Shown here: piece after piece, positions 32,429-60,045 of the stretch
How positions within the stretch are numbered: the stretch's first letter is position 1
Layout of the letters: every line of letters begins with the position of its first letter
Origin: a virus
Lineage: Duplodnaviria > Heunggongvirae > Uroviricota > Caudoviricetes
Virus record (IMG/VR): IMGVR_UViG_3300020050_015720
Strand: one strand, 5' to 3'
Length of the DNA: 64,000 nt
Program-made: the position numbers and the translations under genes
The notes under the pieces: model-generated
Told to the model about the DNA's origin: nothing
Databases searched by the model: none
The model's input: the letters and a program-made list of their open reading frames with translations, nothing else

Positions 32429-32487
32429 AATAGTATGATTTTGAATGTTGAAGAAATTGAAAATAATGTATCTCCCCAAAGTGTTGC

Positions 32488-32805
32488 CTACAACTCTGGC
32501 TTTGATTCGATGGTTAAGGCGTACTCCATAGGGACAGCCTCGTTCCAATTAGAAACACGCTCATCTAGGTCTGCCTTTTCTTCGGCGGTTAGTTGATGAT
32601 AGGGCAGCTCGCGCGGAGTTAGTTCAAAAAGTTTTCCAGAAGGACGATGGAGCATAATCATGCGATCTAACCGCTTCCCATTCTTCATCTGGTATCGGCA
32701 ATTTGTCACGGTGATAGCATCGAATTGTTCATCAAACCCCAACTGGTCTTCTGTATATTCCATTTCGGAATTCAAATCACTGATTATTTCAGATGGTATA
32801 TTCAT
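32488..32805 (-). CDS. hypothetical protein (105 aa)
   Basis: Intact ORF with TAG stop. Confidence 0.5.
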   Translation of the reverse strand: MNIPSEIISDLNSEMEYTEDQLGFDEQFDAITVTNCRYQMKNGKRLDRMIMLHRPSGKLFELTPRELPYHQLTAEEKADLDERVSNWNEAVPMEYALTIESKPEL

Positions 32806-39358: not shown

Positions 39359-39658
39359 TATTCCCCATATTTCTATGGGGCGTGGATCATATCTTCTTTG
39401 CTAAGATTCTGCGCTTATACTAGTATCTTTTAGTGTGTAAACACAATTGCAAAGTCCTGCCATTTCGGGCTTTAAAAGTCGCCCTACTCCCCTTCGGAGG
39501 GATGATCTCTGAACGTTCCCCTGTTCGGGGCTTCGCTGCTGATTGTCCAATTCTATTATTTTTTAACTTATCAAGCTTGCCTTTATTTCAAAGCTACTTT
39601 GTAGTATAATAAACTCTAAGGATATTCCAGCAATTAGACAGGTACCGGACCTAACCTA

Positions 39659-39976
39659 TTGATCCGCCCACTTATCTCTTGAAGGAGATTCTAGGATAGC
39701 CATCTCTTCTGTTGTCATCATAGCATTTATAGTGTCTATAACAATACAGTTGATATCTTGGCGTGTCTCACTAACAGCCTTTACCACTTTATATATTGTT
39801 GTGGGATCGGCCGTCTTCGCGTAGTTTTTATTTTCCGCATTATAAGCGTTCTTTCATCCTTTCCAAGAGAGACCTTTTCCATCCGCATCAATGTAGTAAG
39901 TGCTCTTCGGGTCTAAGAAACGTGCTCCTGTAGTTTTACCTGTTGCAGGTAGTCCTGTTATTTGTACTAAGTTCAT
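39659..39976 (-). CDS. small P-loop NTPase / nucleotide-kinase-like protein (about 105 aa) with one in-frame TGA (39854-39856)
   Basis: Not in the ORF track. Hand translation: MNLVQITGLPATGKTTGARFLDPKSTYYIDADGKGLSWKG*KNAYN...DKWADQ with TAG stop at 39656. Walker A is GLPATGKT. The ATG lies 2 nt after the TAA of the upstream gene. Confidence 0.5.
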
Positions 39977-39978
39977 AA

Positions 39979-40977
39979 TTATAAATCTACTTCTTCTAGT
40001 TTATAGTGTGCAAAATTCTCAGCCAAAGCAATTACCCCAGGCTTTCCGAATCTTTCTTTTATGAGGTGCCAATAGACCATGTGTCTACTAGGCTCCTTTG
40101 GGTATACTAATGGTCAGCCATTTGGAAACTGAGTTCTTGGGGGCCCGTAACCTTTTTCTACACCATTTATGGTTCGCTTCATACCATTTACTGTTATAGG
40201 TCTATGGGACACTAAAACATAGTCTGACGTATGGTAAACAGACGAAGCAGCAAATATGTCATTTCTATTTGGGAAATGGTATAACGGATTTTCTACACGT
40301 TCAACCCGTTCGATATCCCTGTTTAATTGGCCCAAACTAATAATGAGGCAACGTAGGCCTATATGAGCACAATATTTTTTTATATCATTCAAGACATCCA
40401 TCAAAGCATCTACAATCTCTTTCTCGTTGTCACCTGTTCTACCTTTTGTCAAAAGTATGTGGTCAATTGTGATTACTAATCCTAGATTCTTTGAGAGCAA
40501 CTGCCTCTCTGATATAAAGGTTAGAATAGTTTCCTGTATTTGGGATGGTGTGCCAGGATTGTCAACGTAATAAACTGGAACAGAATTTCGCTTCTCTAAC
40601 GCTTTTTCTACCTCATCAAATGCTTCTTTAGACAATGGGCTAGCCGCAGAATACAATTCCTTTATAGTGTACTTTCCTAAAGAAGACACATAACGAGCTA
40701 GCTGATCTTCAATTAGCATCTCAAATTCAAAGGAAAGAATCTCAAAATCAGGTTTATTAAGATCAATAAAATCTTTCTTTAGTTGCTCAAGGATTGTAGA
40801 TTTTCCAGAGCCCGACTGCCCCACAATCGTAAATATTCTTCCTCAGTCAATGCCTCCCATAAGCACAGAGTTCAGTTTAGAAAATGAAGTCTTCAAGGAT
40901 TTTATCTCGCCACTCTGTCTCTTCTTTATGTATTCTAAGGTTGAGTTAACTCCATAACTAATGTGTCTATATTCCAT
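39979..40977 (-). CDS. DnaB-like replicative helicase (RecA-fold C-terminal domain), about 332 aa, two in-frame TGA (40114-40116 and 40843-40845)
   Basis: ORF 40114..40824 starts directly at Walker A (GQSGSGKST). The upstream in-frame extension through TGA reaches an ATG at 40975. Walker B is LVITIDH, and a DnaB-like C-terminal motif (NDIFAASSVYHTSDYVL) is present. Downstream read-through of the TGA at 40114 adds 45 protein-like codons to TAA at 39979. Confidence 0.65.
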
Positions 40978-45538: not shown

Positions 45539-46636
45539 TTACATCTTTTTTGCTGCTTTAGGCAGAGTTAAGCCGCCCTTAGTCCATTTAGTAACCAAGG
45601 CTTGAAATTGAGTACGTAAACCAGCCTTAGCTTGAGGAGACGAGTTTCTTGCTGATTCATATTTCACGAGCAAATCCATAGCTTCCGCTAAGTTAGCAAC
45701 CGTATTTTGTTGGGTGCTTTTGTCATGAATATACGGAAACAGTTTCTCAGAAAATGAAGCAACAACATCTTTATCAAGTTCAGCATAAGTCAACAGTTTA
45801 CCTATCAAATCTTTTGCTTTCCTTGCTTCTTCAGTTATGTCATCTTTTGGCTTCTTGTCCTTTGCGTCATCTTTTGCTTTTGAATCCTTAGCGGGTGCAT
45901 CAACAACCAAATCAAATAAGTTGCCTAGCAAAGCATGATTTACACCTTTATGGGTTAGAGCCAGCATTAATACCGTTAGGATTTCCCAGAAGGTAATTAG
46001 GATGTGAAAGGCTGTCAAACCTAATGAAGTCACCATACCCGTTTTAAGGGAATCATATGGGGCATAGTTAGCCGGAAGCTTATTCAACGCTATCACATAG
46101 TCTAAGTACGCTTGAGGTTTAAATCCCAAACCAACTTGAAAACTTGCCCACCATACTTCAAGTTGAACTCCCTGATGAAGAGCATTTGTCATAGCCATAA
46201 GATTGTAGATAGGCGATCCAATGGTCAAAACCAAACTTACACCACTCAGCATAAAAGTTGTGCTAGCCAAGCCCAGCCAAATGCCTAGGGGTCTTTTTGT
46301 TGTTATTACGGATATGAAACTTCCAAAGTATTTTGTCATGGCGAAGGCACCAAAAGCGCCTACCATTGCCATTGCTATGTGACTGCCCATACGAGCAGCT
46401 ACGTTCATGTTTTCTTCTTGAACTGAACCCAGGAGAGCTGCTTCTGCAAGCATAGCTGAAGCCTGGAAAACAATAAAGTATGTCAGAGAATATTTAATAA
46501 AGGAACGAACAAGAATTACTCCTGGTTCAAGCCCCGCATTTTCAGGATCTTTTTTTGCTTTTTGATATCCAAAGTAGCTTACGACGCCAAGTAATCCGGC
46601 GACCATAATGTAAATAAACGTGGCTTCTAATGTCAT
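45539..46636 (-). CDS. polytopic inner-membrane protein (365 aa)
   Basis: Several hydrophobic helices and a Lys/Asp-rich loop. ATG at 46634, TAA at 45539. Confidence 0.6.
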   Translation of the reverse strand: MTLEATFIYIMVAGLLGVVSYFGYQKAKKDPENAGLEPGVILVRSFIKYSLTYFIVFQASAMLAEAALLGSVQEENMNVAARMGSHIAMAMVGAFGAFAMTKYFGSFISVITTKRPLGIWLGLASTTFMLSGVSLVLTIGSPIYNLMAMTNALHQGVQLEVWWASFQVGLGFKPQAYLDYVIALNKLPANYAPYDSLKTGMVTSLGLTAFHILITFWEILTVLMLALTHKGVNHALLGNLFDLVVDAPAKDSKAKDDAKDKKPKDDITEEARKAKDLIGKLLTYAELDKDVVASFSEKLFPYIHDKSTQQNTVANLAEAMDLLVKYESARNSSPQAKAGLRTQFQALVTKWTKGGLTLPKAAKKM

Positions 46637-46644
46637 TATTTTTT

Positions 46645-48522
46645 TCAGTGTGTACTATCTTCCGCAACAGCGGGAACAGCTATGGTTAAGAATTTGTTAA
46701 CAGCCTCGCTGCAAGAGCGCTCTAGCGCTAAACTTACAGCCTTTTTCTTCCACTCTGCACATTCCACTACATATTCATCGTGCGCAAATATCACAATATC
46801 GAATCCAATCTTTTTTGAGCGTTGCCTTAAATATATTCCGGCTTGCTTTGCTACGTCAGCAGCAGTAGCTTGGATCGGTATGTTCTGTGCCCAACGTTGA
46901 ATTTTTGCCTCTAACATTCTACAATCTCGTACCACATGTGGATGTGGTTCCCAACCTCTCCGTGTAAAGGTCTCTATATGGGCCTTCATGGTTTTATACT
47001 TATCAAAGAAAGGAATATAACTTCTTCTCTTAGTTAATTCGTTTGCCACTATGTACCCATTCTCTTTTGCGAGTTGCCCTTGTCTATCGAAATAGGGTCT
47101 TAGCTTTGGAAATCCCTTATAAACCTTCTCTATCAGCTCTTTTCCTCGTTTCAAAGGAATCCTATACTTTTCGTAAAGTGTTCCAGCACCACCCCCATAG
47201 GCAATACTGAAGTTAATATTCTTAGCTAACCTTCGTTCTTCTGAATCCTTCTGTAAGGTTGGATCTTCAAAGGCCAATCTGGCGGTCGCTAAGTGGTAGT
47301 CTCCATCATTATCAAAGGCAGCTCTAAAGTTTACATCTCCACATTTATCAGCTAGAATTCTTGCTTCAATGTTTGAGAAGTCGGCCCCAACAAATACATT
47401 TCCCTCTTCAGCTTGGAAAGCGGAGCGGTAAATTGCGCCGCGCTTTATATTCTGGATATTCGGATTTGTAGAGGATGTCCTACCCGTACGCATTATCTGC
47501 ATAAAAGAAGAATGAACCCTATTGGATATGGGATTTACATGCTTTAAAAACATTTCCCCATATACAGACGACTCTTTCGCGGACTCCTTATAAGATAGGT
47601 AACTACCAATTATGGGATCTTTCTTTATCTGCTTTTCTAATACTTGTCTAGCAACAGATTCCTTTATCGCGCCCGTCTTTTTGTCTATGATGGATGTGTC
47701 CACCCCGAAAGACTGCATTATTGGTAGAACTTGTCTCCAACTATTTCAGTTTACGGGGGCATAAGCAGAAAGCATTTCTCTAAGCTTTTCAGTAGCAAGC
47801 AATGTTTGACGATAATTGTCTAACCATTGCTTCTGATTTAGAAACACACCAACTAATTCCATATCTCCCAGAACCTTCAAATATTCATTTTCTAACTCGA
47901 TTGTCGCTTCGAGATTATCCTTGGTTATTTGTACTTGTTGAGCCAGATATGTTCTGTATGTGGCCTCAACGTCGAGAGCCGCATATAATAATTGAGCTAA
48001 GCTAAACGGGGTGTCACCTTGTTTTGTAAATGATTTTTGTAGCTCTTTTGTTATCGTAGGGAGAAATAAATTCCCTTGGCTACTATAAAAATCTATGCCA
48101 ACGCGCCTATGAGAAACTTGGGCTAGTCCATACCAGCCTTTTCGTATGCCCTCAAAACTTCCGCAGTCCAAGACTTGCTCTGCTAGCATAGTATCAAATA
48201 CATCACTCAGTTCCACCCCATAGTTCTGCTTTATGACCTGGTAATCATACTTCAGGTTGTGCCCAATAATGGGTCTTTTTATTATTTCTTTTAGGAGCTT
48301 GGTGGGATCTTTTACACGTGTGTCAATAAGATACTGCACATGCGCATTTCCGAACTGTAGTAATACTACCTTTTGAGCTAAGATGTTATCTAATCCTCCG
48401 GTAGTCTCGGTGTCTAGAGCAATAGGGCCAGTTCATTCCCGTATTGCCTTAGTAATATCTAGCCCTGAGCAAGGAGAGATTTTACTATCTCTCACGACTC
48501 ACATAGACGGCCGTATATCCAT
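46645..48522 (-). CDS. polA: family A DNA polymerase with 3'-5' exonuclease domain (about 625 aa), three in-frame TGA (47746-47748, 48433-48435, 48499-48501)
   Basis: Exo I motif (ALDTETTGG) appears only after read-through of the TGA at 48433. Exo III motif is YAALD. Polymerase motifs are A (GADFSNIEARILA), B (RRLAKNINFSIAYG) and C (VIFAHDEYVV). The exo and pol ORFs (47746..48339 and 46645..47718) are in the same frame and separated by a single TGA. The protein ends in His at TGA 46645. Confidence 0.8.
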
Positions 48523-50261: not shown

Positions 50262-50822
50262 TTACGCAACGCTTTTTTATAGGCTTCAGATCGATTTGCG
50301 TCATATACGACACATAACCCCAAAGTTGCCTGGTGTAATTCTACCCGATGAATGATCTTGCGATTACAGACGATAGTCTCGGATATGCGGATTCGCAAGG
50401 TACTCGAGAGCTTGTCGACGAATTCGCCGTATGTCCTCCAACCTTGGTTTTGGTACGGGAATGGAATATCTTTCCACTCGGTAATGGATGGGAGACCCAA
50501 TTTCACGATGGCCTTTTCGCTTATTTCCATTCTTGACTTGTTTTCTGAGGAGTTTTAGTTTGTACAGATCTTTGGTGTATAGATCAGTGGCACAAATTAA
50601 GGCCAATTTTTCTTTTGTAGAGAGTTGAATAGAAAAATTCTTTCTCGTCTTGTTGTTGTAAACACTATCAAGCAATTGGTTGTAGGCTTGTTTCTCAAGA
50701 CGTGTCATCTCTCTCTTACTTCTCCTTTGCTTCTCTTCAGGGGTCCCCGAGTAATAGTCCTCTATTCCTTCTGGGTCTGGGTAACGCCAGCGGACATACT
50801 GAGCCATAGCTATTCGCTTCAT
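50204..50822 (-). CDS. hypothetical gene region where two overlapping frames (50364..50822 and 50204..50530) suggest a frameshift
   Basis: Two protein-like ORFs overlap by 167 nt in different frames. The junction is unresolved. Confidence 0.3.
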
Positions 50823-51172
50823 TTTTTCTTAACGGCTGGTTTAGGTTTAACTACTGGTTTCACTGGAGCTTTCTTAGCTACTGTGGGTATTGTGGGGTTA
50901 CACTGTTGTGTGACTGTGTAACTATGCAACGAATCCCCTTTTATCAGTACTTCAAGCACTATTCGCAAATTCTCACAATGCGGTTTTGCGTTTAGCTCTG
51001 GGAGGCGCAAACTTAGTACACTATGGTCCCAAGTAACCGTTTGTGAGGGTTCAATCTCGATTGTTGGGATGGTGTCTGTTGGACGAATTGGAAGCTCATA
51101 AGCTTCGTCGCCAGGATCTCCGCATGAGAGTGCAAAGATACTAAATAATAACGCGATTGTCAAGTATTTCAT
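50819..51172 (-). CDS. putative lipoprotein (117 aa)
   Basis: Signal peptide with a lipobox-like LSC (MKYLTIALLFSIFALSCGD) and a Pro/Lys-rich C-terminal tail. Confidence 0.5.
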   Translation of the reverse strand: MKYLTIALLFSIFALSCGDPGDEAYELPIRPTDTIPTIEIEPSQTVTWDHSVLSLRLPELNAKPHCENLRIVLEVLIKGDSLHSYTVTQQCNPTIPTVAKKAPVKPVVKPKPAVKKK

Positions 51173-51668: not shown

Positions 51669-52480
51669 GGCTTCTCTATTAAATAAGTTGGAAAGTACGC
51701 TAAAGTAAGGTCCTCAAACACTACTATAACGTATGCTTCTTTCTGAATCTGCCTAGCGTCGTTGTTTGGTAAAATTAGAGATGATACGTATCTTCCAATA
51801 TTTTCAGTATCAAATGTATCGTAAAGAATAAATCCACGAATACGCCCTTTCCCGCAGAGAGTAGAGCCTTTTAAGGATTCTAAATGAGCTAAAAATTCTC
51901 TATAGTTATCACCCCATTTTTGACTTGTAAAAGTTCTAGTTTCTTCTTTACCATTAATAGGCGTAAGAGTGTATTCACCATTAGCGTAAAAATTTTCAGC
52001 TATGCGTAATCTGCACTTCTCTCCTGAAAGCCTATGAGTACAAAGTTGTGTGGCCTGAAGTCCAACTATACAGCCAGGATGACTAAATGGAAGATGTTCC
52101 GGCCGCATATAACTACGTTCACCCAAAGCTCCTAGGCCTAGGGGATAATAAGAAAAATCTAGAATAAGGTGGCTATGATTTAGGTATTCATTAGTTTTTA
52201 ACCAAATTTTTCCTCCTTTTGTTTCGTATTGTGTAAAAACTCCCGTATTTATATAAGCAACCGCTTGGGTTACAAACGACTGCTCTGTATTTGTGTCTGG
52301 GAATCTTCTAGTCCTTTTTGTGCCCATCGGAGCACCAACATCTATTGGGTCTCCAGCTTTTAATGTCATAGCAGAAAAAATTAGGAGAAGAGGGTTGAGC
52401 TCTTCTCCTAGGTGATAACCAAAAAGTTGTATAAAATATGGTCTTTTACAGCGACAAAGCTTTCTCCAGCTTTTCGGCAA
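51665..52480 (-). CDS. hypothetical protein (271 aa)
   Basis: Intact ORF. No confident motif. Any resemblance to thymidylate synthase was weak and is not asserted. Confidence 0.5.
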   Translation of the reverse strand: MPKSWRKLCRCKRPYFIQLFGYHLGEELNPLLLIFSAMTLKAGDPIDVGAPMGTKRTRRFPDTNTEQSFVTQAVAYINTGVFTQYETKGGKIWLKTNEYLNHSHLILDFSYYPLGLGALGERSYMRPEHLPFSHPGCIVGLQATQLCTHRLSGEKCRLRIAENFYANGEYTLTPINGKEETRTFTSQKWGDNYREFLAHLESLKGSTLCGKGRIRGFILYDTFDTENIGRYVSSLILPNNDARQIQKEAYVIVVFEDLTLAYFPTYLIEKP

Positions 52481-53843
52481 ATTGGAGTTTCTTACCTAGA
52501 CCAAAAACTCCTCCCAAAGTCATGGATTCTCCCTCTTTCAAAGGATCCCATTTCAAATCAGGATACTTAGCAACCAGTGCGTTGTATAATTTCGCAGTTT
52601 GTTCGACCGACAGAAGACCAATTTCAACGGTTAGGTCCATACGACCTTGGCGTACAAGTGTTTCGTCAACCACGTGACCAGAGTCAATTGTGCCCGCAAG
52701 GACGAAAGACAACTGAGGTTGGTCCACAATGCCTTCAATTGCGCTGTTTAAGTCCGCAATGAGTTTTGCCGGAATGCCGGATACCTCATCAATGAACACA
52801 ACAACCCCTCCTTTGTCGGAGTTTCGAACCAAGTCAGCAAAGGGTGCTGACGAAGTCTCCAACAACTTCTCTAGGGCACCTACGGTAACGGTTGCTACCT
52901 TTTGACCACATTCATTGGCCTTGTGCGCTAACAGTCGAAGGAGACGGCTCTTACCAGTACCAGCTTTACCTAAAAAGGCAATACGCACAGGAACATTTTC
53001 TTTCCACTGTTGTCCAATGGTTTCTAGTAGCCTGCGCACCGGAACCAACTTTGGCGTTGTCTCTTTGGTTTGTAGGACAGGATAACATAAATCCAGTATT
53101 GGTGCCTCCACGGGAACAACTGGCATCGTGCCATAGGTCCACGTTTTGCTTTTGTCATTGTACGACCACACAGCCATCATGCTTTTGTCAAATACCTTTG
53201 GCAGGTACTTTACACGCAGTTCGGCAGAATTGGCCACACGCTGACAAAGAGCCATTGTGTCAAGCGGGCAATCTCCCTGGCAGTCCTTCGGTGTGTAAAT
53301 CTTGAGACCCTTAATTACTGATACAAAATCTTTGTCCCTGGCATAAGGGACAAATTTTTCTGAATCTTCGATAGCTGAAAGCGGAGCCCAATCAGTAATA
53401 AATTCTAAGATTACCGTGTCCGAGAGATTTTCGGTTCCCGACGCAGTTTCGATTTTGAATAATTGCGAACGTCCACTGTCATCGGCAAATGGATCTTCCG
53501 GTGATTCGTGCAGTATCTCTTCGGTTATCTGCCCGTTGGTAGTTTTCAAGAATTCAAGGAGAAATAATTCCAGTGGGACGTTTCTGGCGTTCGATAGGAT
53601 GAGTGTGTTCCAAATTTCCATTTTCAGTAACGAGCTGACTGCCGCTTCTTTTCTGGAAAACCTTGCGCCAAGTTTTTTGATGAGTTCCTCCAACAATGAA
53701 TTTGTTTCCTGGTGTAAGGCCGTTGTGACTTCTTGATGAATGGTCGTCGATTCATTTACCTTTAAGGTAATTTTGTAATAGAGGACCATCAAAATAATAA
53801 TAACGGCAACCGTTATCATAATCAGCCATAGCATAAGTTGCAT
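52446..53843 (-). CDS. membrane-anchored classical AAA+ ATPase (465 aa)
   Basis: N-terminal TM helix (LWLIMITVAVIIILMVLYY), Walker A (GKAGTGKS), Walker B (VVVFIDEV) and an arginine-finger region VRQGRMD, comparable to the AAA RPGRFD motif. Confidence 0.7.
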   Translation of the reverse strand: MQLMLWLIMITVAVIIILMVLYYKITLKVNESTTIHQEVTTALHQETNSLLEELIKKLGARFSRKEAAVSSLLKMEIWNTLILSNARNVPLELFLLEFLKTTNGQITEEILHESPEDPFADDSGRSQLFKIETASGTENLSDTVILEFITDWAPLSAIEDSEKFVPYARDKDFVSVIKGLKIYTPKDCQGDCPLDTMALCQRVANSAELRVKYLPKVFDKSMMAVWSYNDKSKTWTYGTMPVVPVEAPILDLCYPVLQTKETTPKLVPVRRLLETIGQQWKENVPVRIAFLGKAGTGKSRLLRLLAHKANECGQKVATVTVGALEKLLETSSAPFADLVRNSDKGGVVVFIDEVSGIPAKLIADLNSAIEGIVDQPQLSFVLAGTIDSGHVVDETLVRQGRMDLTVEIGLLSVEQTAKLYNALVAKYPDLKWDPLKEGESMTLGGVFGLGKKLQFAEKLEKALSL

Positions 53844-53869
53844 ATAGATTTTAGTTTAATTGTTAACAA

Positions 53870-54065
53870 AAATTCCCTCCCCGTCCTAAGGCGGTACCAG
53901 TCCTTACTACTTATCCCGAGAATACCAGGTCCCAGCCGCTGATGGAGCAGCCAGAAAGATATGTGGGGACCTTTGCGAGGATCCGCGCGGTCAGGCCAAA
54001 TTCGGGGGAAGGGAACACTCCCAGTGAAGCAAAACCCTAGAGACGGGAGACATCCCACGGGGCAG
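53870..54065 (-). ncRNA. GC-rich (about 58-60%) structured island, candidate small RNA or regulatory element upstream of the AAA+ gene
   Basis: Sharp local GC excess against the AT-rich background, with several short G/C runs that could pair. The only ORF across it (53822..54058, 78 aa) looks like a translation artefact. No known RNA family was recognised. Confidence 0.3.
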
Positions 54066-54068
54066 ATC

Positions 54069-54569
54069 TTAATTTAGGTCGCGAGCAATAATAGCTCGTA
54101 ATTTCGTCGTGTAAAGAGGATCTTCAGCATATCTACAACCCTTGCAGTGTGGCAAGTGATCTAGTAACCATAAGTAATCATCCTCTGTCTCGATTTTGTA
54201 TTTTTTACGAGCCAAACGGAGAATCATTTTTTGGTACTTCAAGTATTCTGCCAAAGACAGTGCTGCATTTTTGTAAGCCGAATGCCCTGCGCGCACCTCT
54301 GTAGAATAGGTCCTATCTTTTCTCTTCTTCATACCAAAAACATTTTTATTATGTTGGTAAATATCAGAAGTAAAAGAACCTGTTTCTAGGATCATCTGAC
54401 TTATCACTACTCTTGGGAATTCAAATCCTTGGGACTCCATTTTTCTAAAGAGATTCTCCCAACTTGTTTCGCCATAAGCACTGAATTGTGCAGGCTCTTC
54501 ACTAGTTCTTCCAAAAAGTAAAATGGCGGCGAGAAAAACTAGCCCCACTCGAAATACGAACTTGAGCAT
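54069..54569 (-). CDS. secreted glucosaminidase-domain protein (peptidoglycan hydrolase family, 166 aa)
   Basis: Signal peptide followed by SQMILETGSFTSDIYQHNKNVFGMK, which resembles the mannosyl-glycoprotein endo-beta-N-acetylglucosaminidase / FlgJ-type motif. Confidence 0.55.
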   Translation of the reverse strand: MLKFVFRVGLVFLAAILLFGRTSEEPAQFSAYGETSWENLFRKMESQGFEFPRVVISQMILETGSFTSDIYQHNKNVFGMKKRKDRTYSTEVRAGHSAYKNAALSLAEYLKYQKMILRLARKKYKIETEDDYLWLLDHLPHCKGCRYAEDPLYTTKLRAIIARDLN

Positions 54570-54854
54570 TTACTTTCCGATTTAAATTTTTTAAACGTGA
54601 GAGCCCAGTTGCTATTTGCACTAAGGAAAATATTTCTAGCTCTATAATTATAGAACCAAAATATTCCCCCTTGCTAGAGGACTCTAGGTTAAACCGTCTA
54701 AGTCTCTCACCTGTATGCAGCATGGCCTGTATTGTTTCCTTTAACTCGTCTTGATTTGTGATTGCCCTTGACTGGTTATCACTAACAGGAATTTTAAGAA
54801 TCAGCACACTTCTGTTTGCCCCCGTTTGCAGCTGTAACTTACCATGCAGTAATA

Positions 54855-55478
54855 TCATAGCACCGGTGTATTGGTGAAGGCAATAATTTTTTGCTGCAAG
54901 ATTTCAGCATCATACACCGCAAGAGCAGCTTTGGGCAGTACTGTCTTGTGATCGATCCGTACATCCTTGCCGGTTCTGGAAGCGAGTTTGATCTCATTTA
55001 CCAAGATGCCGGCAGTGCAAATAGCCGTAGCACTCTGCGTATAGTAAACCTCCCCATTCCGCAAGATTTGCATTTTCAAATCTTGCATGTAGACAATCTG
55101 TAGTACGCTGCGCTCAATGGATTCTCCCCCTATAACGATGGAGACACGTTGCTCGATAACTTGTACGCTTTTTTCAAATGAAATATTGCGTACCCAAATC
55201 TCACCATTATGGAAATACAGTTCGCCGGTAGCGCACCATTCCCCATTCTTTGCGCTGGAGGCCTCGACAAAAACAGCCAATTCAGCTGAATCAGCTTTTA
55301 CGGCTATTACTTTTTCCTCCAATTTGGCTCCAGCACCACGATGAGTACACCGCATAGTTAGATATGGATTATTATCACCAATGCCAACTCGTAGCGCGCT
55401 GGGTATGTAGTAGGATTTGTCATCAGAAAATTGAATCTGATTTTGGCCCCACTCTGTGGTTAACATTTTTAAACTCAT
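54855..55478 (-). CDS. hypothetical protein (207 aa)
   Basis: Intact ORF. Confidence 0.5.
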   Translation of the reverse strand: MSLKMLTTEWGQNQIQFSDDKSYYIPSALRVGIGDNNPYLTMRCTHRGAGAKLEEKVIAVKADSAELAVFVEASSAKNGEWCATGELYFHNGEIWVRNISFEKSVQVIEQRVSIVIGGESIERSVLQIVYMQDLKMQILRNGEVYYTQSATAICTAGILVNEIKLASRTGKDVRIDHKTVLPKAALAVYDAEILQQKIIAFTNTPVL

Positions 55479-55542
55479 TTTTAATTGGTTGAAGGGGGCA
55501 GAGGGTTACTCCGCCCCCATGAACAATAATGTTTCGTTTCTT

Positions 55543-56265
55543 CTACACCTCAACGGCAATTTCTGCCTCTTCGATGGCTGCTGGGATTTCAGCTTCGACA
55601 GAATTTGCCTTCAAAATGGTGTCAGCAATGGCAAGGGTAGCGTTTACCAAAGCTTCAGCTTGAGCATCAGCTGCCTCCCGAGCTTGATCCAACGCAGTTC
55701 GAAGGTTTTTGGAATGTTCCAGGGCAGTTTTGGCACTTACCAGTGCATCATTCATTTGCGCTGGTAACACATTCACTGGTGTTTTCGCAGCAACAATGGC
55801 GTTATCCGCCGGTACAGGCGTTTGTTCAGGTACGGCCTCTTCTTCGGTAACTTCTGGGGCATCTTGAGATTCTTCAGTTACCAGGGTTTGGAGTTCTTCT
55901 TCCGTTGCAGGTACTGGTGCCTCATAAGTGAGGCCGGCTTCACGAAGAGTGGAAATAGCAAGCTCCTGAGCTTCTGGACTTTTGTCTTCGTGATACATGG
56001 TCACGGCGTCCTGAATTTCTTTCAGGTTATCCACAGTAATCTCTGGGGTACCAGAAAATGGCATTTCTGTCAAATCACTTTGCAGCACCAGGGAGGCAAA
56101 CTTGTGGCGGATGGTAGGCCAGTTGGCCAGTGCGTAATAGGGCTTGTCTACTTCCGTTGGTATGCCTGCACGCTCATTGTTTAGCGCAGCGATAACAACT
56201 GGAAGATTGGCTTCAGGAGAGAGGCCTAGCTCTTCTCGGGTAAATTCATACTTTTTGGTACTCAT
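55543..56265 (-). CDS. acidic Ala/Glu-rich protein (240 aa)
   Basis: Intact ORF with a low-complexity acidic C-terminal half. Confidence 0.5.
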   Translation of the reverse strand: MSTKKYEFTREELGLSPEANLPVVIAALNNERAGIPTEVDKPYYALANWPTIRHKFASLVLQSDLTEMPFSGTPEITVDNLKEIQDAVTMYHEDKSPEAQELAISTLREAGLTYEAPVPATEEELQTLVTEESQDAPEVTEEEAVPEQTPVPADNAIVAAKTPVNVLPAQMNDALVSAKTALEHSKNLRTALDQAREAADAQAEALVNATLAIADTILKANSVEAEIPAAIEEAEIAVEV

Positions 56266-56544
56266 TTATATTGTTGTTTAATAGTGAAAAATCGATTTTT
56301 AATATTCCACCAGAAATATTATTATATCTGGCAGCTTTTTGGTTTTCGGCTGGGGTTAGGTACAGAGTTTCGGTTTTTGGTTTAAAATGCTCGCTTTCAA
56401 TTAATGAGGCTTCAACTAATATTGTTGGCACACCTTCGGTCGGTTGTGTGTGGGTTAATACCCATAAAACACCGTCAGGAGTACGAAATCCAGGACGATA
56501 CTTGGCACAAGAACTGAAGGTGTTCAGATATGTGAACAGTTCAA

Positions 56545-57675
56545 TCATGTTATAGATTTATACATGGTATAATCCCCGCCACTAGCTTTACAAAGAACAC
56601 TCAAGTCTTTGTTGAATTCACCCAAACTTAATGCATGAACTGGAGCAGCGGGTTTCATTTCTCCAGGGGGATCCTCACCATCATTTATTATGAGTATGCG
56701 TGTGTCCACAGGAACTTTAAAGGTTCCAAACATTCCTTTTTGCAAATCAGTAATGACTTTGGGTAGTATGTGATTTAGATAAGTGTTTCCACCAGAACCA
56801 TCTGTCACAATTTTTTTAAACTCATTAACGCTATGGGCATTTTTTAGTTCAAAGGCCGGACCAAGTGAATACTCAAATGGAGCGATTAATAACCTTAAGC
56901 TTTCTTTTTCAACCTCTTTAAATAGCGACTCTAAAATAGCAGTTAGTTTTGGCACACGTGTGTCAGCACTCATAGAGCCAGAATCATCTAACAAAATAAC
57001 CATTGTTTTGAGATCTTGTTTTGAGCGCAGAGGAAATTTACCAATCAATTGTCTTTGAGCAAGCATTAACTCAAACACGTCGTCATCAACACACAGCTGT
57101 TTAGGGATTACGCGAGCAATCTCCTCTAGTCTGCGGATTCTTCTAAAGTGAACGGCACTCTTGGGTTTACCCTCAACTTTTTTACTATTCGTTTGTTGTT
57201 TAGCAAACACCATGGCTCCACTTTGCTTGATGTATTCTGGAACCTCGTCTACAGCGCCAAAAGGAAGAGAATAACCCTGAAAAAAGTTTCTGATACTTTC
57301 TCCACCCTTATGTCCCCCAGGAAGCATCATTTCTTTTTCAGCTTCGGCTTCCTCAATGGCCTCTTTTACAGCTTTTTCAAATTCTTCTTGAGAAGAATCT
57401 TTATGCTGCTTTATCATATACTGTTCTGCAAGAACTCTTGCTAGTGTATAGACATCTCCTTTTACCTTACTTCCAGCAATAGCCATATCGAGTGCCATGC
57501 TTTTCGTAGACTTCCCACCGCTTACCTGCATTGCTACTGAATATGGATCATTATCCATTGTTAAATGACTCGCAACAGCAGCTGCCGTGGTCAGATAACC
57601 TGTGGAAATGTAATGGTTGGCCTTTTCTGCAGCTTTTTTTAGGAGCTCAGGATCTAGGTTATAAGCTTGGTTCAT
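56545..57675 (-). CDS. von Willebrand factor A (VWA) domain protein (376 aa), partner of the upstream MoxR-like ATPase
   Basis: MIDAS motif DxSxS (VILLDDSGSMSADTR) with downstream T and D ligands. Its ATG overlaps the stop of the AAA gene (ATGA). Confidence 0.7.
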   Translation of the reverse strand: MNQAYNLDPELLKKAAEKANHYISTGYLTTAAAVASHLTMDNDPYSVAMQVSGGKSTKSMALDMAIAGSKVKGDVYTLARVLAEQYMIKQHKDSSQEEFEKAVKEAIEEAEAEKEMMLPGGHKGGESIRNFFQGYSLPFGAVDEVPEYIKQSGAMVFAKQQTNSKKVEGKPKSAVHFRRIRRLEEIARVIPKQLCVDDDVFELMLAQRQLIGKFPLRSKQDLKTMVILLDDSGSMSADTRVPKLTAILESLFKEVEKESLRLLIAPFEYSLGPAFELKNAHSVNEFKKIVTDGSGGNTYLNHILPKVITDLQKGMFGTFKVPVDTRILIINDGEDPPGEMKPAAPVHALSLGEFNKDLSVLCKASGGDYTMYKSIT

Positions 57676-58709
57676 AATTTTGGGATTTCTGTTGCATTTG
57701 CAACTTTTTGAACGTGGTCCTTTAACAGCTGTGAAAGATTCATGGCTGTATTTCGCATACGGTCAGTGTAGACACCCGTTGTTGGGATCCCCTTTATGTT
57801 TTCAAGAGCGCTCTTAGCCTTTCCAAAATGAGCAATAAAATTTGGATCGTTTCGTTCGAAGGCAAATTTTGCTTGAAGAGCTAGACTTTCGGCTTCTTCC
57901 AAGTCTCTTACAAAAGGAACCAAAGCCATCATCTTCTTTAGCTCCTCATACACTTCTGGCTTCTCATGCATGTCATCGAAAGTCTCAACACCACTTAAAC
58001 CTTCAAACTTGATAAGGTCTTGGAAGGCTAGCGCTTCCCTCGGTGCCATTGGGTAATTCATTTGATGGCATTTTTCAAGCATAGCCGCCACAAGTTTGTC
58101 AGGTCGACCTAAATGGGTTAAATAAGCATCCCAGGTGGTAATGTCATACTTGCTCCATTCTACATGAGCTCTGTGTGGAAAACGTTTCAAAAGCGCTTTG
58201 TAACTGTCGACCTCACCCGCCCATTCAACTGGATTGTGATTTGTGCAGATGAACATCGACTGTAATTTTACTGGGGAACAAACATTGTTGATGCAAAGTA
58301 CTTTTGACATCAATGGCTGCTTCATGGTTTCGAGCACGTACGGGGGAGCGTCCAAGCCTTCCTCCAATATGGCGTACTCCTTCTCCATATATATCGTATG
58401 CTCCAATTGGTAGTTGATAGTACCGTCTTCTCGGTACCGTTTCAAGTCCAAGGCACCAACAAAGGGTTCTGTAGGCATTTCCATGCCGCCGTTTGTCTGG
58501 TACACCTGCTGGTAGAACGCAACCTCACCCAAATAGAGTTTCAGGGCCGTTTCGACAATACCAGATTTTGCATGGCCAGGTGGACCATACAGAATACAGT
58601 TTTGTTTTAGTGCCAAGGCACGTATGACCGCATTTATGGCAGGGTCACTTTGGAAGTACCTCTGCTGTAATTCAGCTTTCACTTCCGTTAATTCCATGTT
58701 TATCTTCAT
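57672..58709 (-). CDS. MoxR-like AAA+ ATPase (345 aa)
   Basis: Walker A ILYGPPGHAKSG, a Walker B/DExx-like region (AILEEGLDAPP), and FICTNHNP, which resembles the MoxR 'ATQNP' sensor motif. Confidence 0.7.
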   Translation of the reverse strand: MKINMELTEVKAELQQRYFQSDPAINAVIRALALKQNCILYGPPGHAKSGIVETALKLYLGEVAFYQQVYQTNGGMEMPTEPFVGALDLKRYREDGTINYQLEHTIYMEKEYAILEEGLDAPPYVLETMKQPLMSKVLCINNVCSPVKLQSMFICTNHNPVEWAGEVDSYKALLKRFPHRAHVEWSKYDITTWDAYLTHLGRPDKLVAAMLEKCHQMNYPMAPREALAFQDLIKFEGLSGVETFDDMHEKPEVYEELKKMMALVPFVRDLEEAESLALQAKFAFERNDPNFIAHFGKAKSALENIKGIPTTGVYTDRMRNTAMNLSQLLKDHVQKVANATEIPKL

Positions 58710-58723
58710 GTTTTAAAATTTAG

Positions 58724-58789
58724 GGGTGTGGGACGGATTCGAACCTTCTATAAGTATATAATACCTATAATCACCATTAGAACCACACC
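58724..58789 (-). tRNA. tRNA-like element (about 66 nt) with canonical T-arm and acceptor stem but a compressed D/anticodon region
   Basis: Minus strand reads GGTGTGG...GAAGG TTCGAAT CCGTC CCACACC C. The acceptor halves are perfectly complementary. The middle 32 nt are AT-rich, and the only 5-bp stem I could place gives an anticodon loop ATTATAT (UAU?). No UCA anticodon is present. Confidence 0.35.
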
Positions 58790-58808
58790 TTAGGGGGATT
58801 TTGTAAGC

Positions 58809-59612
58809 CTAATCATACTTAGTTAGGTTATACCGTTTGATTACACTAATTAGTGTATTAGCATAACTTTTATCCGTTGCATAACCTACTTGCTTTAATC
58901 CTTGGGCCCAACGAACGTAGTCGCGTCCGTATTTCTTTAATTTTGCATATCGTCCCGATGACAACAGCTTTGAATGGGCTTCCCAGCTTTGTGCAGGAGA
59001 TTTGAACTTCAAAAAGAAGTCTTTGTGGGTATCGTCCTTATGATTGGTACAATGCCCCTTACCACACTTTTTTGAAAAACACTTCATGCCAAAATGATTG
59101 TTGTTTTGCACCGCTAATTTACTAGTTCCTGCTCTCGATTCAATCAGACCTTGTGCTAAACTGATACTTGCGGGTACTCCATGTTTTCTCCAACCAGCCT
59201 GTGCCGCAGCTTTGTACTTCTGAATATACGCCTGCGCCTGCGTTTTGTAAGCGGTTAAATTCTTTGCCGGAGCTGGTTCTGGTGGATTTTCATCCAGAGT
59301 TTCTTTCTCTCCTACAAATACCGAAGTTTGCGGAATTTCGGGTACAATCTCTTCTTCTGCGTCAGCCTTCTCACTTGAAGCTTGAACGACAGGTACAATG
59401 ATTGTTTTTGGTGGGTTGGTATTTATACTCACCCAAGCACCTATGGTCATAGCGCACATAAGGGTTAATCCAAGGAACACGCCAACGTTGGCCTTTTGAA
59501 TGCCCGACAATCTTTGAAAGATTGCAACAGTAGCATACAACCAATGGACAAACGTCGGTACTGCCTTTTCTTCGGTTGATTTCGACGACGTAATTTTGAT
59601 AATTTGTTTCAT
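58809..59612 (-). CDS. membrane-anchored glucosaminidase-family peptidoglycan hydrolase (267 aa)
   Basis: N-terminal TM segment, an Ala/Pro-rich linker, and a C-terminal domain with LAQGLIESRAGTSKLAVQNNNHFGMK plus a Cys/His cluster. TAG stop. Confidence 0.65.
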   Translation of the reverse strand: MKQIIKITSSKSTEEKAVPTFVHWLYATVAIFQRLSGIQKANVGVFLGLTLMCAMTIGAWVSINTNPPKTIIVPVVQASSEKADAEEEIVPEIPQTSVFVGEKETLDENPPEPAPAKNLTAYKTQAQAYIQKYKAAAQAGWRKHGVPASISLAQGLIESRAGTSKLAVQNNNHFGMKCFSKKCGKGHCTNHKDDTHKDFFLKFKSPAQSWEAHSKLLSSGRYAKLKKYGRDYVRWAQGLKQVGYATDKSYANTLISVIKRYNLTKYD

Positions 59613-59760: not shown

Positions 59761-60045
59761 TTAACTTCCAAGTTTATCCACCGCCTCTTCTTTCTCGAGG
59801 GCCTTTAGTAACTCAAGGTAATTTTGGTAACGGTCATATGCCGCCTCCACAGAGGACAGAAAGGTGGATTTGTTTTGGTCGAGGGCAATCTCTAGTTGAT
59901 AGAGCGCCTTCTTTTTTGCCAATTGTTTTTTCGTGAGACGAGGCCTCAGTCCTCTAAGGATAAGCGTAATTCCAACAACAAAACAAACGGCAAGAATGCC
60001 GACCATGGCGGGATTTTCAATTATTGTCTGTGGAATCTGTTCCAT
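59761..60045 (-). CDS. small single-pass membrane protein (94 aa), possibly holin/spanin-like
   Basis: N-terminal TM helix (MVGILAVCFVVGITLIL) followed by a charged coiled-coil tail. Sits next to the hydrolase. Confidence 0.35.
   Translation of the reverse strand: MEQIPQTIIENPAMVGILAVCFVVGITLILRGLRPRLTKKQLAKKKALYQLEIALDQNKSTFLSSVEAAYDRYQNYLELLKALEKEEAVDKLGS

What the first reader, a model, noticed from the sequence alone, without database searches (positions are those of the whole stretch)
52446..59612. Cluster of a MoxR-like AAA ATPase with a VWA/MIDAS partner and a membrane-anchored classical AAA+ ATPase, bracketed by two glucosaminidase-family hydrolases
MoxR-VWA pairs (RavA-ViaA, CoxD-CoxE, NorQ-NorD types) are chaperone-like metal-insertion or remodelling modules and are not a standard phage component. 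Here the pair (57672-58709 and 56545-57675, start/stop overlapping as ATGA) sits with a TM-anchored AAA+ gene (52446-53843), an acidic protein, a tRNA-like element and two cell-wall hydrolases. This could be a lysis or envelope-remodelling module, or an anti-defence system of an undescribed type.
Basis: partly seen in the sequence, partly recalled or inferred. Interest (0 to 1): 0.6.

Follow-up and report, generated by a model that had tools for sequence, protein, structure and literature searches.

The report
Phage MoxR ATPase with VWA partner
The cluster is real, but its core is a self-contained two-gene unit, an ATP-driven remodelling enzyme plus its adaptor protein, that recurs in many uncultured phages with no known target, while the cell-wall enzymes and the membrane ATPase next to it are neighbours in only one phage lineage.

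Summary
They are:
- a MoxR-type AAA+ ATPase (57672-58709);
- a VWA/MIDAS protein (56545-57675), joined to the MoxR gene by an ATGA start/stop overlap;
- an acidic protein;
- two exported GH73 glucosaminidases;
- an N-terminally membrane-anchored classical AAA ATPase (52446-53843).

The "tRNA-like element" is only a tRNA-like remnant that scores below the tRNA threshold (58724-58789).

I compared 88 viral contigs that carry this MoxR family. The VWA gene lies directly downstream in 82 of them; four of the six exceptions are cut by a contig end. No other gene family accompanies the pair in more than 30 loci. The GH73 genes occur with the pair in 17 loci. The membrane AAA occurs with it in about 14 to 17, depending on the cut-off. 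These are essentially the window's own phage lineage. Elsewhere the pair sits among helicase, DnaB and DNA polymerase genes.

The family is closest to Pfam bpMoxR. It is not CobS/CobT or RavA/ViaA, and it has no match in cultured phages. MoxR-VWA pairs are already known in phages, so this is a new, uncharacterised variant of a known kind. Its mechanism (a hexameric motor plus a MIDAS adaptor that remodels an unknown target) is inferred. A lysis or envelope module, or an anti-defence role, is not excluded but has no specific support.

The parts
59761..60045 (-). Small single-pass membrane protein (94 aa, transmembrane segment at about residues 7-34, helical charged tail). It lies directly upstream of GH73a and is a possible holin-like partner.
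   Evidence: Hydropathy. A 79-101 aa single-transmembrane ORF sits directly upstream of GH73a in L002, L003, L006, L007, L016 and L017. Weak homology to the L002 ORF. The role is inferred.
58809..59612 (-). GH73a: a membrane-anchored GH73 N-acetylglucosaminidase (267 aa). It has a Gly/Ala/Thr-rich transmembrane segment at about residues 41-63, a linker, and the catalytic domain at 135-263.
   Evidence: Pfam Glucosaminidase 1e-31 and PHROG endolysin families down to 2e-33. The catalytic-Glu motif LIESRAG, NNHFGMK and GYATD are conserved. Transmembrane segment.
58724..58789 (-). Degenerate tRNA-like remnant in the 99-nt spacer between GH73a and MoxR.
   Evidence: Rfam tRNA 17.6 bits (gathering 29), E 0.29. 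Not called by ARAGORN. Acceptor stem GGTGTGG/CCACACC and GGTTCGAATCC are read. The close relative L090 keeps the element but has a 268-nt insertion between it and the MoxR start.
57672..58709 (-). MoxR-class AAA+ ATPase (345 aa): an AAA_5 core followed by an all-helical C-terminal domain.
   Evidence: Pfam bpMoxR 2e-9. Conserved motifs: Walker A GPPGHAKS, Walker B ILEEGLD, sensor-1 T156-N157, Arg finger R176. PDB profile hit to RavA 6e-9. Model pLDDT 88.5, with best folds NorQ, CbbQ, RavA and CHU_0153.
56545..57675 (-). VWA/MIDAS partner (376 aa): an N-terminal region of about 220 aa of unknown fold followed by a C-terminal VWA domain. Its start overlaps the MoxR stop (ATGA).
   Evidence: Pfam VWA 5.9e-5. 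MIDAS D230xS232xS234...T298...D332 invariant. Profile hits VWA structures at about 1e-4. ATGA overlap. Found at position +1 in 82 of 88 loci.
56246..56548 (-). 100-aa ORF that corresponds to the N-terminal part of a single, roughly 350-390 aa acidic protein in relatives.
   Evidence: Alignment with L002, L003, L006, L007 and L017. The split is also present in the independent assemblies L090 and L091.
55543..56265 (-). Acidic protein (240 aa, pI 4.23), the C-terminal part of the same split gene. No known domain.
   Evidence: pI. No Pfam, PHROG, PADLOC or NCBIfam hit. An acidic ORF of about 350-410 aa sits at +2 only in the window's lineage, including L082/L083.
54855..55478 (-). Conserved lineage-specific protein of unknown function (207 aa).
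   Evidence: Orthologues in L002, L003, L006 and L007. No family hits.
54069..54569 (-). GH73b: a small exported GH73 glucosaminidase (166 aa) with an N-terminal signal or anchor at residues 1-23.
   Evidence: Pfam Glucosaminidase 5e-14. ILETGSF, FGMK and YAEDPLY conserved in orthologues. Hydropathy.
53844..54068 (-). Conserved spacer of about 200 nt upstream of the membrane AAA gene. It is non-coding and likely holds that gene's promoter or 5' leader.
   Evidence: A spacer of 95-250 nt is present in most lineage members. It is nearly identical in L090 and L091, and a 2-nt indel is tolerated there. No Rfam hit, fold z-score 0.04, and no consensus structure.
52446..53843 (-). Membrane-anchored classical-clade AAA ATPase (465 aa): transmembrane segment 1-30, a novel middle domain of about 250 aa with a CxxxC motif, and an AAA domain at about 285-430.
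   Evidence: Pfam AAA 4.6e-8. Profile hits Cdc48/p97/AFG2 at about 1e-20. Walker A GKAGTGKS, Walker B FIDE, and R398xGR401. The transmembrane segment is conserved in the lineage's full-length orthologues. The middle domain has no PDB match. The model is poor, pLDDT 47.
52382..52410 (-). Terminator-like hairpin followed by a T-run, just after the membrane AAA stop codon.
   Evidence: Consensus scan only.

Best explanation
The functional unit is the two-gene pair of MoxR ATPase (57672-58709) and VWA/MIDAS protein (56545-57675). It belongs to a large, phage-borne and so far uncharacterised branch of the MoxR family whose nearest Pfam family is bpMoxR.

Inferred mechanism, by analogy with NorQ-NorD, RavA-ViaA and CbbQ-CbbO: the ATPase forms a hexameric ring. 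The VWA protein docks on the ring and uses its metal-ion site (MIDAS) to grip an acidic residue of a target protein. ATP hydrolysis is then transmitted through the adaptor to remodel, assemble or take apart that target.

The pair is transcribed in the early/middle, replication-gene arm of the genome. I therefore think the target is an intracellular host or phage complex handled during genome replication or host takeover, not a virion part. The target is unknown.

The other genes in the finding are neighbours specific to one lineage and probably have their own jobs:
- a small membrane protein plus membrane-tethered GH73a, and a second exported GH73b, for cell-wall cutting (lysis or local peptidoglycan remodelling);
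- a separately transcribed, membrane-anchored classical AAA ATPase of unknown substrate.

Shown: gene content, intact catalytic motifs, translational coupling, and strict pairing across phages. Inferred: ring and adaptor mechanics, timing, and target class.
For: - Intact ATPase and MIDAS motifs, invariant across orthologues.
- The start and stop codons overlap as ATGA.
- VWA lies directly downstream of MoxR in 82 of 88 viral loci. Four of the six exceptions are cut by a contig end. One (L015) has a DxSxS-bearing ORF at +1. Only L029 truly lacks the partner.
- All-against-all clustering of 2,940 neighbouring ORFs finds no other family in more than 30 of the 88 loci.
- In other phages the pair lies next to an SF2 helicase, DnaB, SF1 helicase, DNA polymerase A, AAA_24, PARP and SPFH genes. 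In the window it lies upstream of, and on the same strand as, DNA polymerase A, helicase, DnaB and UDG genes.
- The family is large: 249 clusters (at 50% identity) match at E <= 1e-30 over the full length. 28 of 30 members hit bpMoxR.
- The fold matches NorQ, CbbQ and RavA.
- The ring-plus-VWA 'finger in the pore' mechanism is taken from NorQD work (PMC9976466, PMC13036017).
- The membrane AAA gene has its own ~200-nt upstream spacer and a terminator-like hairpin after it.
Against: - No experiment, expression data or interaction data exist for any member, and the target is unknown.
- Within the window's lineage the whole block (small membrane protein, GH73a, MoxR, VWA, acidic protein, GH73b, membrane AAA) keeps its order even where MoxR identity falls to about 27-30% (L020, L082). 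A lineage-specific functional link therefore cannot be excluded.
- The neighbourhood survey sees only 10 kb on each side and only contigs retrieved through one peptide pattern.
- The early/middle timing is inferred from gene position alone.
Confidence: 0.55

Rival explanations
1. In this phage lineage the whole block is one envelope-remodelling or lysis machine. The MoxR-VWA chaperone would activate, assemble or time the two membrane-tethered GH73 hydrolases, possibly together with the membrane-anchored AAA ATPase and the small membrane protein.
For: - The gene order is kept across the lineage despite deep divergence.
- Five products are membrane- or periplasm-directed: the small membrane protein, GH73a, GH73b, the membrane AAA and the lipoprotein-like p117.
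- GH73a directly abuts MoxR in most lineage members.
- No other lysin was seen among the window ORFs I scanned.
Against: - Roughly 70 other loci carry the pair with no GH73 or membrane AAA within 10 kb.
- GH73a is 5 genes away in L082/L083, and no GH73 was detected in L088.
- Conserved order within one phage family is expected from common descent alone.
- The MoxR and VWA proteins have no membrane segment or signal peptide, whereas the GH73 domains act outside the membrane.
- The membrane AAA appears to be a separate transcription unit.
Confidence: 0.15
2. The pair is a counter-defence device. It would have been captured from, or be related to, bacterial MoxR-vWA 'ternary' conflict systems (the beta-propeller or FtsH types), and would be used by the phage to dismantle or jam a host immune complex.
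For: - The nearest Pfam family is bpMoxR, defined on predicted conflict systems of Bacteroidetes, Planctomycetes and others (PMC7159879).
- The P-loop GPPGHAKS resembles the GxxxTAKS variant noted for those systems (PMC7159879).
- Planctomycete proteins are among the strong family hits.
- The pair sits in the early/middle arm, where phage anti-defence genes often lie (my own knowledge).
Against: - No PADLOC match for the pair.
- There is no beta-propeller, TPR or double-FtsH third component.
- The pattern scan of 185,579 species genomes found only one weak relative, although that scan depends on one peptide pattern.
- The bacterial systems themselves are only predicted to act in conflict.
Confidence: 0.15
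3. The pair is a virion- or tail-assembly chaperone, as proposed for the MoxR/VWA proteins of Acidianus two-tailed virus and of T4-like jumbo phages.
For: Acidianus two-tailed virus ORF618 is among the best viral structural matches. The proposals are in PMC7824862 and PMC7159879.
Against: - The pair lies in the replication arm, on the strand opposite to the structural genes. In other phages it neighbours helicases and polymerases.
- The structural match is limited to the generic AAA core.
Confidence: 0.1
4. The pair is a CobS/CobT-type chelatase motor that hijacks host CobN to boost cobalamin synthesis.
For: The architecture is the same (AAA+ followed by VWA), and cobST pairs are common in phages (PMC8651126). 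3 of 30 family members weakly match the CobS PHROG.
Against: - The window proteins hit no CobS or CobT model in Pfam, PHROGs or NCBIfam.
- 28 of 30 members match bpMoxR instead.
- The VWA partner lacks any CobT-specific region.
Confidence: 0.03

Closest known systems
bpMoxR (Pfam PF20030): the MoxR component of the MoxR-vWA-beta-propeller ternary systems (Kaur et al. 2020, PMC7159879)
   Same: It is the best Pfam match for the window protein (2e-9) and for 28 of 30 family members. The Walker A has Ala before the Lys (GPPGHAKS, compared with GxxxTAKS). It is paired with a divergent VWA protein that has an N-terminal extension.
   Different: The phage VWA protein ends right after the VWA domain, so it has no beta-propeller. 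There is no third TPR/beta-propeller component. The pair is carried by phages among replication genes.
FtsH-type MoxR-vWA ternary systems (PMC7159879)
   Same: They combine a MoxR, a VWA protein with an N-terminal extension (a large all-helical domain in the simpler published systems), and a classical (FtsH-type) AAA ATPase.
   Different: The phage AAA has a single AAA domain plus a novel, non-AAA middle domain (hhalign probability 0.1%). It lies six genes downstream of the MoxR gene, with five genes between it and the VWA gene, has its own upstream spacer, and occurs only in one phage lineage.
NorQ-NorD, CbbQ-CbbO and RavA-ViaA (characterised MoxR/VWA chaperone pairs)
   Same: Same fold class, adjacent genes, and an intact MIDAS site. 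These pairs are the basis for the inferred ring-plus-adaptor mechanism (PMC9976466, PMC13036017).
   Different: There is no RavA LARA domain, and no NorD- or CbbO-type partner architecture. The target is unknown, and the genes are phage-encoded.
Phage and archaeal-virus MoxR/VWA pairs: cobST of cyanophages, T4-like phages and haloviruses; Acidianus two-tailed virus p618/p892
   Same: They are viral AAA+ (MoxR-class) plus VWA two-gene units (PMC8651126, PMC7824862). They are structural neighbours in the viral library.
   Different: This is a different sequence family. The window protein does not hit the CobS PHROG, and there is no tblastn match in 50,697 phage records. The VWA partner carries no detectable peptidase domain.
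GH73 (FlgJ/AcmA-type) endolysins with membrane anchors, such as signal-anchor-release endolysins
   Same: GH73a and GH73b have the GH73 catalytic motifs and N-terminal hydrophobic segments. GH73a has a small membrane protein directly upstream.
   Different: There are two paralogues, they lie in the early/middle arm, and they flank non-lysis genes. Release from the membrane is untested.

Membership tests
MoxR class of AAA+ ATPases | AAA_5-type core with Walker A, Walker B, sensor 1 and an Arg finger; sequence and fold closest to MoxR members | tested here: met
   Motifs are invariant. Pfam bpMoxR and AAA_5. PDB profile hit to RavA 6e-9. Foldseek top hits are CHU_0153, NorQ, CbbQ2 and RavA.
MoxR class of AAA+ ATPases | Adjacent gene for a VWA/MIDAS partner | tested here: met
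   ATGA overlap. MIDAS motif invariant. VWA at +1 in 82 of 88 loci.
MoxR-vWA-beta-propeller ternary system | VWA protein with a C-terminal beta-propeller of about four blades | tested here: not met
   The VWA domain spans residues 225-370 of 376, leaving no room for a propeller, and there is no propeller hit.
MoxR-vWA-beta-propeller ternary system | Third component with a variable N-terminus, a membrane segment, and TPR plus beta-propeller regions | tested here: not met
   No such protein among the neighbours. No third family is conserved across the 88 loci.
FtsH-type MoxR-vWA ternary system | Third component with two FtsH-type AAA domains, the N-terminal one inactive | tested here: not met
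   There is one AAA domain. The middle domain shows no similarity to the AAA domain (hhalign probability 0.1%) and has no PDB match. The structural model is too poor to settle the fold.
FtsH-type MoxR-vWA ternary system | The three genes form a conserved operon wherever the system occurs | tested here: not met
   The AAA gene lies 5-7 genes downstream, has its own spacer, and is absent from roughly 70 of the 88 loci.
CobS/CobT cobaltochelatase pair | Match to CobS- or CobT-specific models | tested here: not met
   The window proteins hit no CobS or CobT model. Only 3 of 30 family members weakly match the CobS PHROG.
RavA-ViaA | RavA C-terminal triple-helix and LARA domains (a protein of about 500 aa) | tested here: not met
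   The protein is 345 aa with an all-helical C-terminus. The RavA match covers only the AAA core, residues 5-178.
Classical AAA clade (Cdc48/FtsH/AFG2-like) | Walker A and B plus the second region of homology with two arginines (RxGRxD) | tested here: met
   GKAGTGKS, VVVFIDE and R398-Q-G-R401-M-D are conserved. The profile hits Cdc48/p97/AFG2 at about 1e-20.
Classical AAA clade (Cdc48/FtsH/AFG2-like) | Conserved aromatic-hydrophobic-Gly pore loop 1 used for substrate threading | tested here: inconclusive
   Read by eye from the alignment: no conserved aromatic-hydrophobic-Gly motif lies between Walker A and Walker B. No reliable model is available to locate the loop.
GH73 peptidoglycan N-acetylglucosaminidase | Pfam Glucosaminidase domain with the catalytic Glu and the YATD-type motif | tested here: met
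   1e-31 and 5e-14. The motifs are conserved in all orthologues of both paralogues.
Signal-anchor-release endolysin with holin | The anchor is released from the membrane on depolarisation, and there is lytic activity | not testable with these tools
   Only the Gly/Ala/Thr-rich anchor and the upstream small membrane protein are seen.
tRNA gene | Scores above the threshold of a tRNA detector or covariance model | tested here: not met
   ARAGORN finds none. Rfam tRNA scores 17.6 bits against a gathering score of 29.

The most novel reading that the evidence does not exclude
In this phage lineage the MoxR-VWA pair, the acidic +2 protein, the two exported GH73 hydrolases and the membrane-anchored single-domain AAA ATPase would act together. 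They would form a phage-built, ATP-driven envelope machine: a viral counterpart of the bacterial MoxR-vWA-FtsH ternary systems. Alternatively, the pair would be a captured conflict-system chaperone that dismantles a host immune complex. Either case would be the first function assigned to a large, phage-specific MoxR/VWA family.
Probability: 0.12. Interest if true: 0.75.

Novelty: new variant of a known kind. Interest (0 to 1): 0.4.

Why it matters
MoxR/VWA pairs are ATP-driven remodelling devices, and each characterised example has one dedicated target, such as an NO reductase, Rubisco or a respiratory complex.

This work delimits a sizeable phage-borne branch. It comprises at least 88 viral contigs and 249 clusters (at 50% identity) with strong full-length matches. 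It has no cultured representative in the phage collection searched, no annotation and no known target, and it sits among replication genes.

Finding its target would show what a whole set of uncultured phages (probably phages of Bacteroidota-like hosts) remodel in the cell during infection. It would also test whether phage MoxR/VWA pairs in general are metabolic hijackers, assembly chaperones or counter-defence tools.

The lineage-specific membrane-anchored classical AAA ATPase, with its novel middle domain, is a second uncharacterised protein worth a structural look.

Tried and rejected
- tRNA and structured RNA: ARAGORN and Rfam (gathering thresholds) find no tRNA. The 225-nt spacer before the AAA gene has no Rfam hit, a fold z-score of 0.04, and no consensus structure over 7 relatives. 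I rejected it as a structured RNA. It is non-coding, because a 2-nt indel is tolerated in L091.
- Is the middle domain of the membrane AAA a degenerate second AAA domain, as in FtsH ternary systems? hhalign probability is 0.1%. A profile of 9 orthologues finds nothing in the PDB.
- The AlphaFold2 model of the membrane AAA (3-sequence alignment) has pLDDT 47 and is unusable, so I ran no fold search on it.
- The word-index homologue searches for the AAA protein were swamped by generic AAA proteins. They returned only 1 and 2 hits.
- PADLOC and NCBIfam give nothing meaningful for the pair.
- DNA and protein searches against cultured phages found no match for the region or for the MoxR. A more distant family member hits only generic archaeal-virus MoxRs.
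- The single-protein scan of viral contigs found nothing. The alignment-based scans worked.
- The scan of bacterial and archaeal genomes returned one weak hit, and it is limited by its peptide pattern.
- I looked for a conserved third component at positions -2, -1, +2 and +3 across all loci and found none.
- The promoter scan gives no more sigma-70-like sites than shuffled sequence, so it is uninformative.

Full report
**1. What is in the sequence**

All genes between about 50 kb and 64 kb of the window lie on the minus strand. The window is a phage genome. Its plus-strand half holds very large virion-type ORFs. One matches a PHROG virion structural protein at 4e-92, and its nearest cultured relatives are Flavobacterium Fipvunavirus and Cellulophaga phages at about 26% identity. 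Its minus-strand half holds DNA polymerase A, helicases, a DnaB-like protein, UDG and an SPFH protein. The same sequence is on record as JGI contig Ga0206648_1000078.

**2. Checking each item of the finding**

- MoxR (57672-58709): Pfam bpMoxR 2e-9 and AAA_5. The Walker A (GPPGHAKS), Walker B (ILEEGLD), sensor-1 (T156-N157) and Arg finger (R176) are conserved in close and distant relatives. A family profile hits RavA in the PDB at 6e-9. An AlphaFold2 model with pLDDT 88.5 has the MoxR-class ATPases CHU_0153, NorQ, CbbQ2 and RavA among its best structural matches.
- VWA (56545-57675): Pfam VWA only reaches the cut-off. However, the complete MIDAS signature D230-x-S232-x-S234...T298...D332 is invariant in seven orthologues down to 20% identity, and the profile finds solved VWA domains. 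Its ATG overlaps the MoxR TGA as ATGA.
- Membrane AAA (52446-53843): a classical-clade AAA with Walker A, Walker B and RxGRxD. Its profile hits Cdc48/p97/AFG2 at about 1e-20. Its N-terminal transmembrane segment is kept in the lineage's full-length orthologues.
- Both GH73 proteins keep the catalytic motifs and N-terminal hydrophobic segments in all orthologues.
- The acidic protein has pI 4.23.
- The 'tRNA-like element' is a remnant that scores below the tRNA threshold, in the GH73a-MoxR spacer at 58724-58789. It has a perfect acceptor stem and T-loop but scores only 17.6 bits against a gathering score of 29, and ARAGORN does not call it.

**3. Is it one module?**

This was the key test. Exact-match and homologue look-ups gave a few relatives whose contigs show the same order: GH73, MoxR, VWA, x, x, GH73, membrane AAA, and so on to DNA polymerase A. 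I then used alignments of the MoxR family to pull 88 loci from IMG/VR. I called ORFs and searched them with profiles of each component. The results were:

- The VWA gene is the next gene downstream in 82 of 88 loci.
- Of the six exceptions, four are cut by a contig end. One (L015) has a DxSxS-bearing ORF at +1. One (L029) truly lacks the partner.
- GH73 genes occur with the pair in 17 loci. The membrane AAA occurs with it in 17 loci at E <= 1e-3, or about 14 at stricter cut-offs. These are essentially the window's own phage lineage.
- A reverse search with the membrane AAA alignment returns only contigs of that same lineage.
- All-against-all clustering of the 2,940 neighbouring ORFs finds no family other than MoxR (88 loci) and VWA (82 loci) in more than 30 loci.
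- No conserved family occupies positions -2, -1, +2 or +3.
- In the other phages the pair sits beside SF2 and SF1 helicases, DnaB, DNA polymerase A, an AAA_24 protein, a PARP-like protein, homing endonucleases and SPFH proteins.

The evolutionarily stable unit is therefore the two-gene pair. The rest of the finding is lineage-specific synteny. Within the lineage that synteny is deep: the same order holds at 27-30% MoxR identity (L020, L082). A lineage-specific functional link is thus not excluded, but conserved gene order within a phage family does not demonstrate one.

**4. Size and place of the family**

- An exhaustive profile search finds 2,428 representative clusters at E <= 1e-3 and 249 at E <= 1e-30. 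Nearly all of the 150 best listed match over most of the protein's length, including the helical C-terminal domain.
- The members I sampled are almost all unnamed metagenomic proteins on contigs of 15-145 kb, plus a group of 690-aa planctomycete proteins.
- 28 of 30 members match Pfam bpMoxR.
- Only 3 of 30 touch the CobS PHROG, and the commonest PHROG hit is a weak match to an unnamed 'ATPase' family.
- No cultured phage in 50,697 records matches the window protein.
- A pattern-limited scan of 185,579 species genomes gave one weak hit.
- The pair has no PADLOC or NCBIfam match.

**5. Comparison with what is known**

MoxR/VWA pairs are well known as dedicated remodelling chaperones. For NorQ-NorD, cryo-EM shows a VWA 'finger' inserted in the pore of the hexamer and force transmitted through a linker in the adaptor (PMC9976466, PMC13036017). 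That is the basis for the mechanism I infer here.

They are also not new to viruses:
- cobST pairs are reported as widespread in tailed viruses (PMC8651126).
- A MoxR-vWA pair is described in T4-like jumbo phages and compared with the tail-development pair of Acidianus two-tailed virus (PMC7824862).
- The viral structure library returns many phage MoxR-like ATPases.

Kaur et al. (PMC7159879) define bacterial MoxR-vWA ternary conflict systems, including the beta-propeller type that gives bpMoxR its name and an FtsH type. The window cluster superficially recalls the FtsH type, because it has a MoxR, a VWA protein with an N-terminal extension, and a classical AAA. It nevertheless fails the defining features:
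- the AAA has a single AAA domain;
- its middle domain is unrelated to AAA;
- the gene is not adjacent to the pair and is not co-distributed with it;
- there is no propeller, TPR or ubiquitin-like component.

**6. Best explanation and rivals**

The pair is an autonomous, ATP-driven remodelling module expressed alongside replication genes, acting on an unknown intracellular host or phage complex (confidence 0.55). The gene content, motifs, coupling and pairing are shown. The mechanics, timing and target class are inferred.

The GH73 genes are best read as cell-wall hydrolases for lysis or local peptidoglycan remodelling. GH73a always has a small single-pass membrane protein directly upstream, and its own anchor is rich in Gly, Ala and Thr. 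The membrane AAA has its own ~200-nt non-coding upstream spacer and a terminator-like hairpin after it. Its substrate is unknown, and I saw no conserved aromatic pore loop in the alignment.

The rivals are:
- an integrated envelope or lysis machine specific to this lineage (0.15);
- a counter-defence device related to the bacterial conflict systems (0.15);
- a virion-assembly chaperone (0.1);
- a CobST-like chelatase motor (0.03).

**7. Verdict**

The pair is not foreign to phages, and the five-part module is not supported by the comparative data.

What remains of interest is a sizeable phage-specific MoxR/VWA family with no cultured member and no known target, together with a lineage-specific membrane-anchored classical AAA that has a novel domain. 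I rate it a new variant of a known kind, of moderate interest.

Noticed in passing
window 39363-39691 (-): A group I catalytic intron (Rfam RF00028, 64.4 bits, E 4.8e-14) lies in the replication arm, downstream of a DnaB-like ORF (40114-40824). I did not work out which gene it interrupts.
   Followed up: no
window 55543-56548 (-); L002:11697-12752, L090:2731-3745, L091:1118-2124: The gene after VWA is one acidic ORF of about 350-390 aa in relatives. In the window it is split into 100 aa and 240 aa, with a 20-nt overlap at an A-run (CCAAAAAG). The split is also present in two independent assemblies, so it is real rather than a sequencing error. A +1 shift at the A-run would restore collinearity with the L002 protein.
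   Followed up: partly
window 58709-58808 (-); L090:302-569: The close relative L090 (MoxR 99% identical) has a 268-nt insertion exactly between the tRNA-like remnant and the MoxR start codon. This suggests an indel hotspot next to the tRNA-like sequence.
   Followed up: partly
L091:3604-5211 (NCBI JAHZTJ010052327.1): The public record annotates the membrane AAA as 535 aa. A 2-nt indel near the true ATG puts the upstream spacer in frame, so the 70-aa N-terminal extension is probably an annotation artefact.
   Followed up: partly
window 53844-54068 (-): The spacer before the membrane AAA gene carries the motif TAAGTAGTAAGG, which is kept (with one substitution in L003) in relatives whose AAA proteins are only 20-36% identical (L002, L003). 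It is followed by a TTTTTGTT...TAAACT stretch. This may be a promoter or regulatory site. No RNA structure was detected.
   Followed up: partly
window 31451-32548 (-); e.g. L061:13722-14639: The window encodes an SPFH/Band 7 protein. SPFH proteins also lie 3-7 genes downstream of the MoxR-VWA pair in 13 other phage loci. This is the only membrane-associated family that recurs near the pair outside the window's lineage.
   Followed up: no
window 9495-21782 (+): A 4,095-aa ORF in the structural arm has an SF1-helicase-like P-loop domain (AAA_30 2e-10) at residues 1238-1334. The neighbouring 778-aa ORF has a weak match to the crAss cargo protein 1 domain.
   Followed up: no
window 45539-48339 (-): DNA polymerase A appears as separate ORFs: a 3'-5' exonuclease of 197 aa (47746-48339) and a polymerase domain of 357 aa (46645-47718). 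In the relative L002 both domains are in one gene.
   Followed up: no
window 50819-51172 (-): A 117-aa protein has a lipoprotein-type signal (...IFALSC) and a Lys/Pro-rich tail. It is conserved downstream of the membrane AAA in the lineage and may be a spanin-like or exclusion lipoprotein.
   Followed up: no
L013:5902-7110: In a distant phage that carries the MoxR-VWA pair, a PARP-like ADP-ribosyltransferase with a WGR domain lies about 3 kb upstream of the pair.
   Followed up: no
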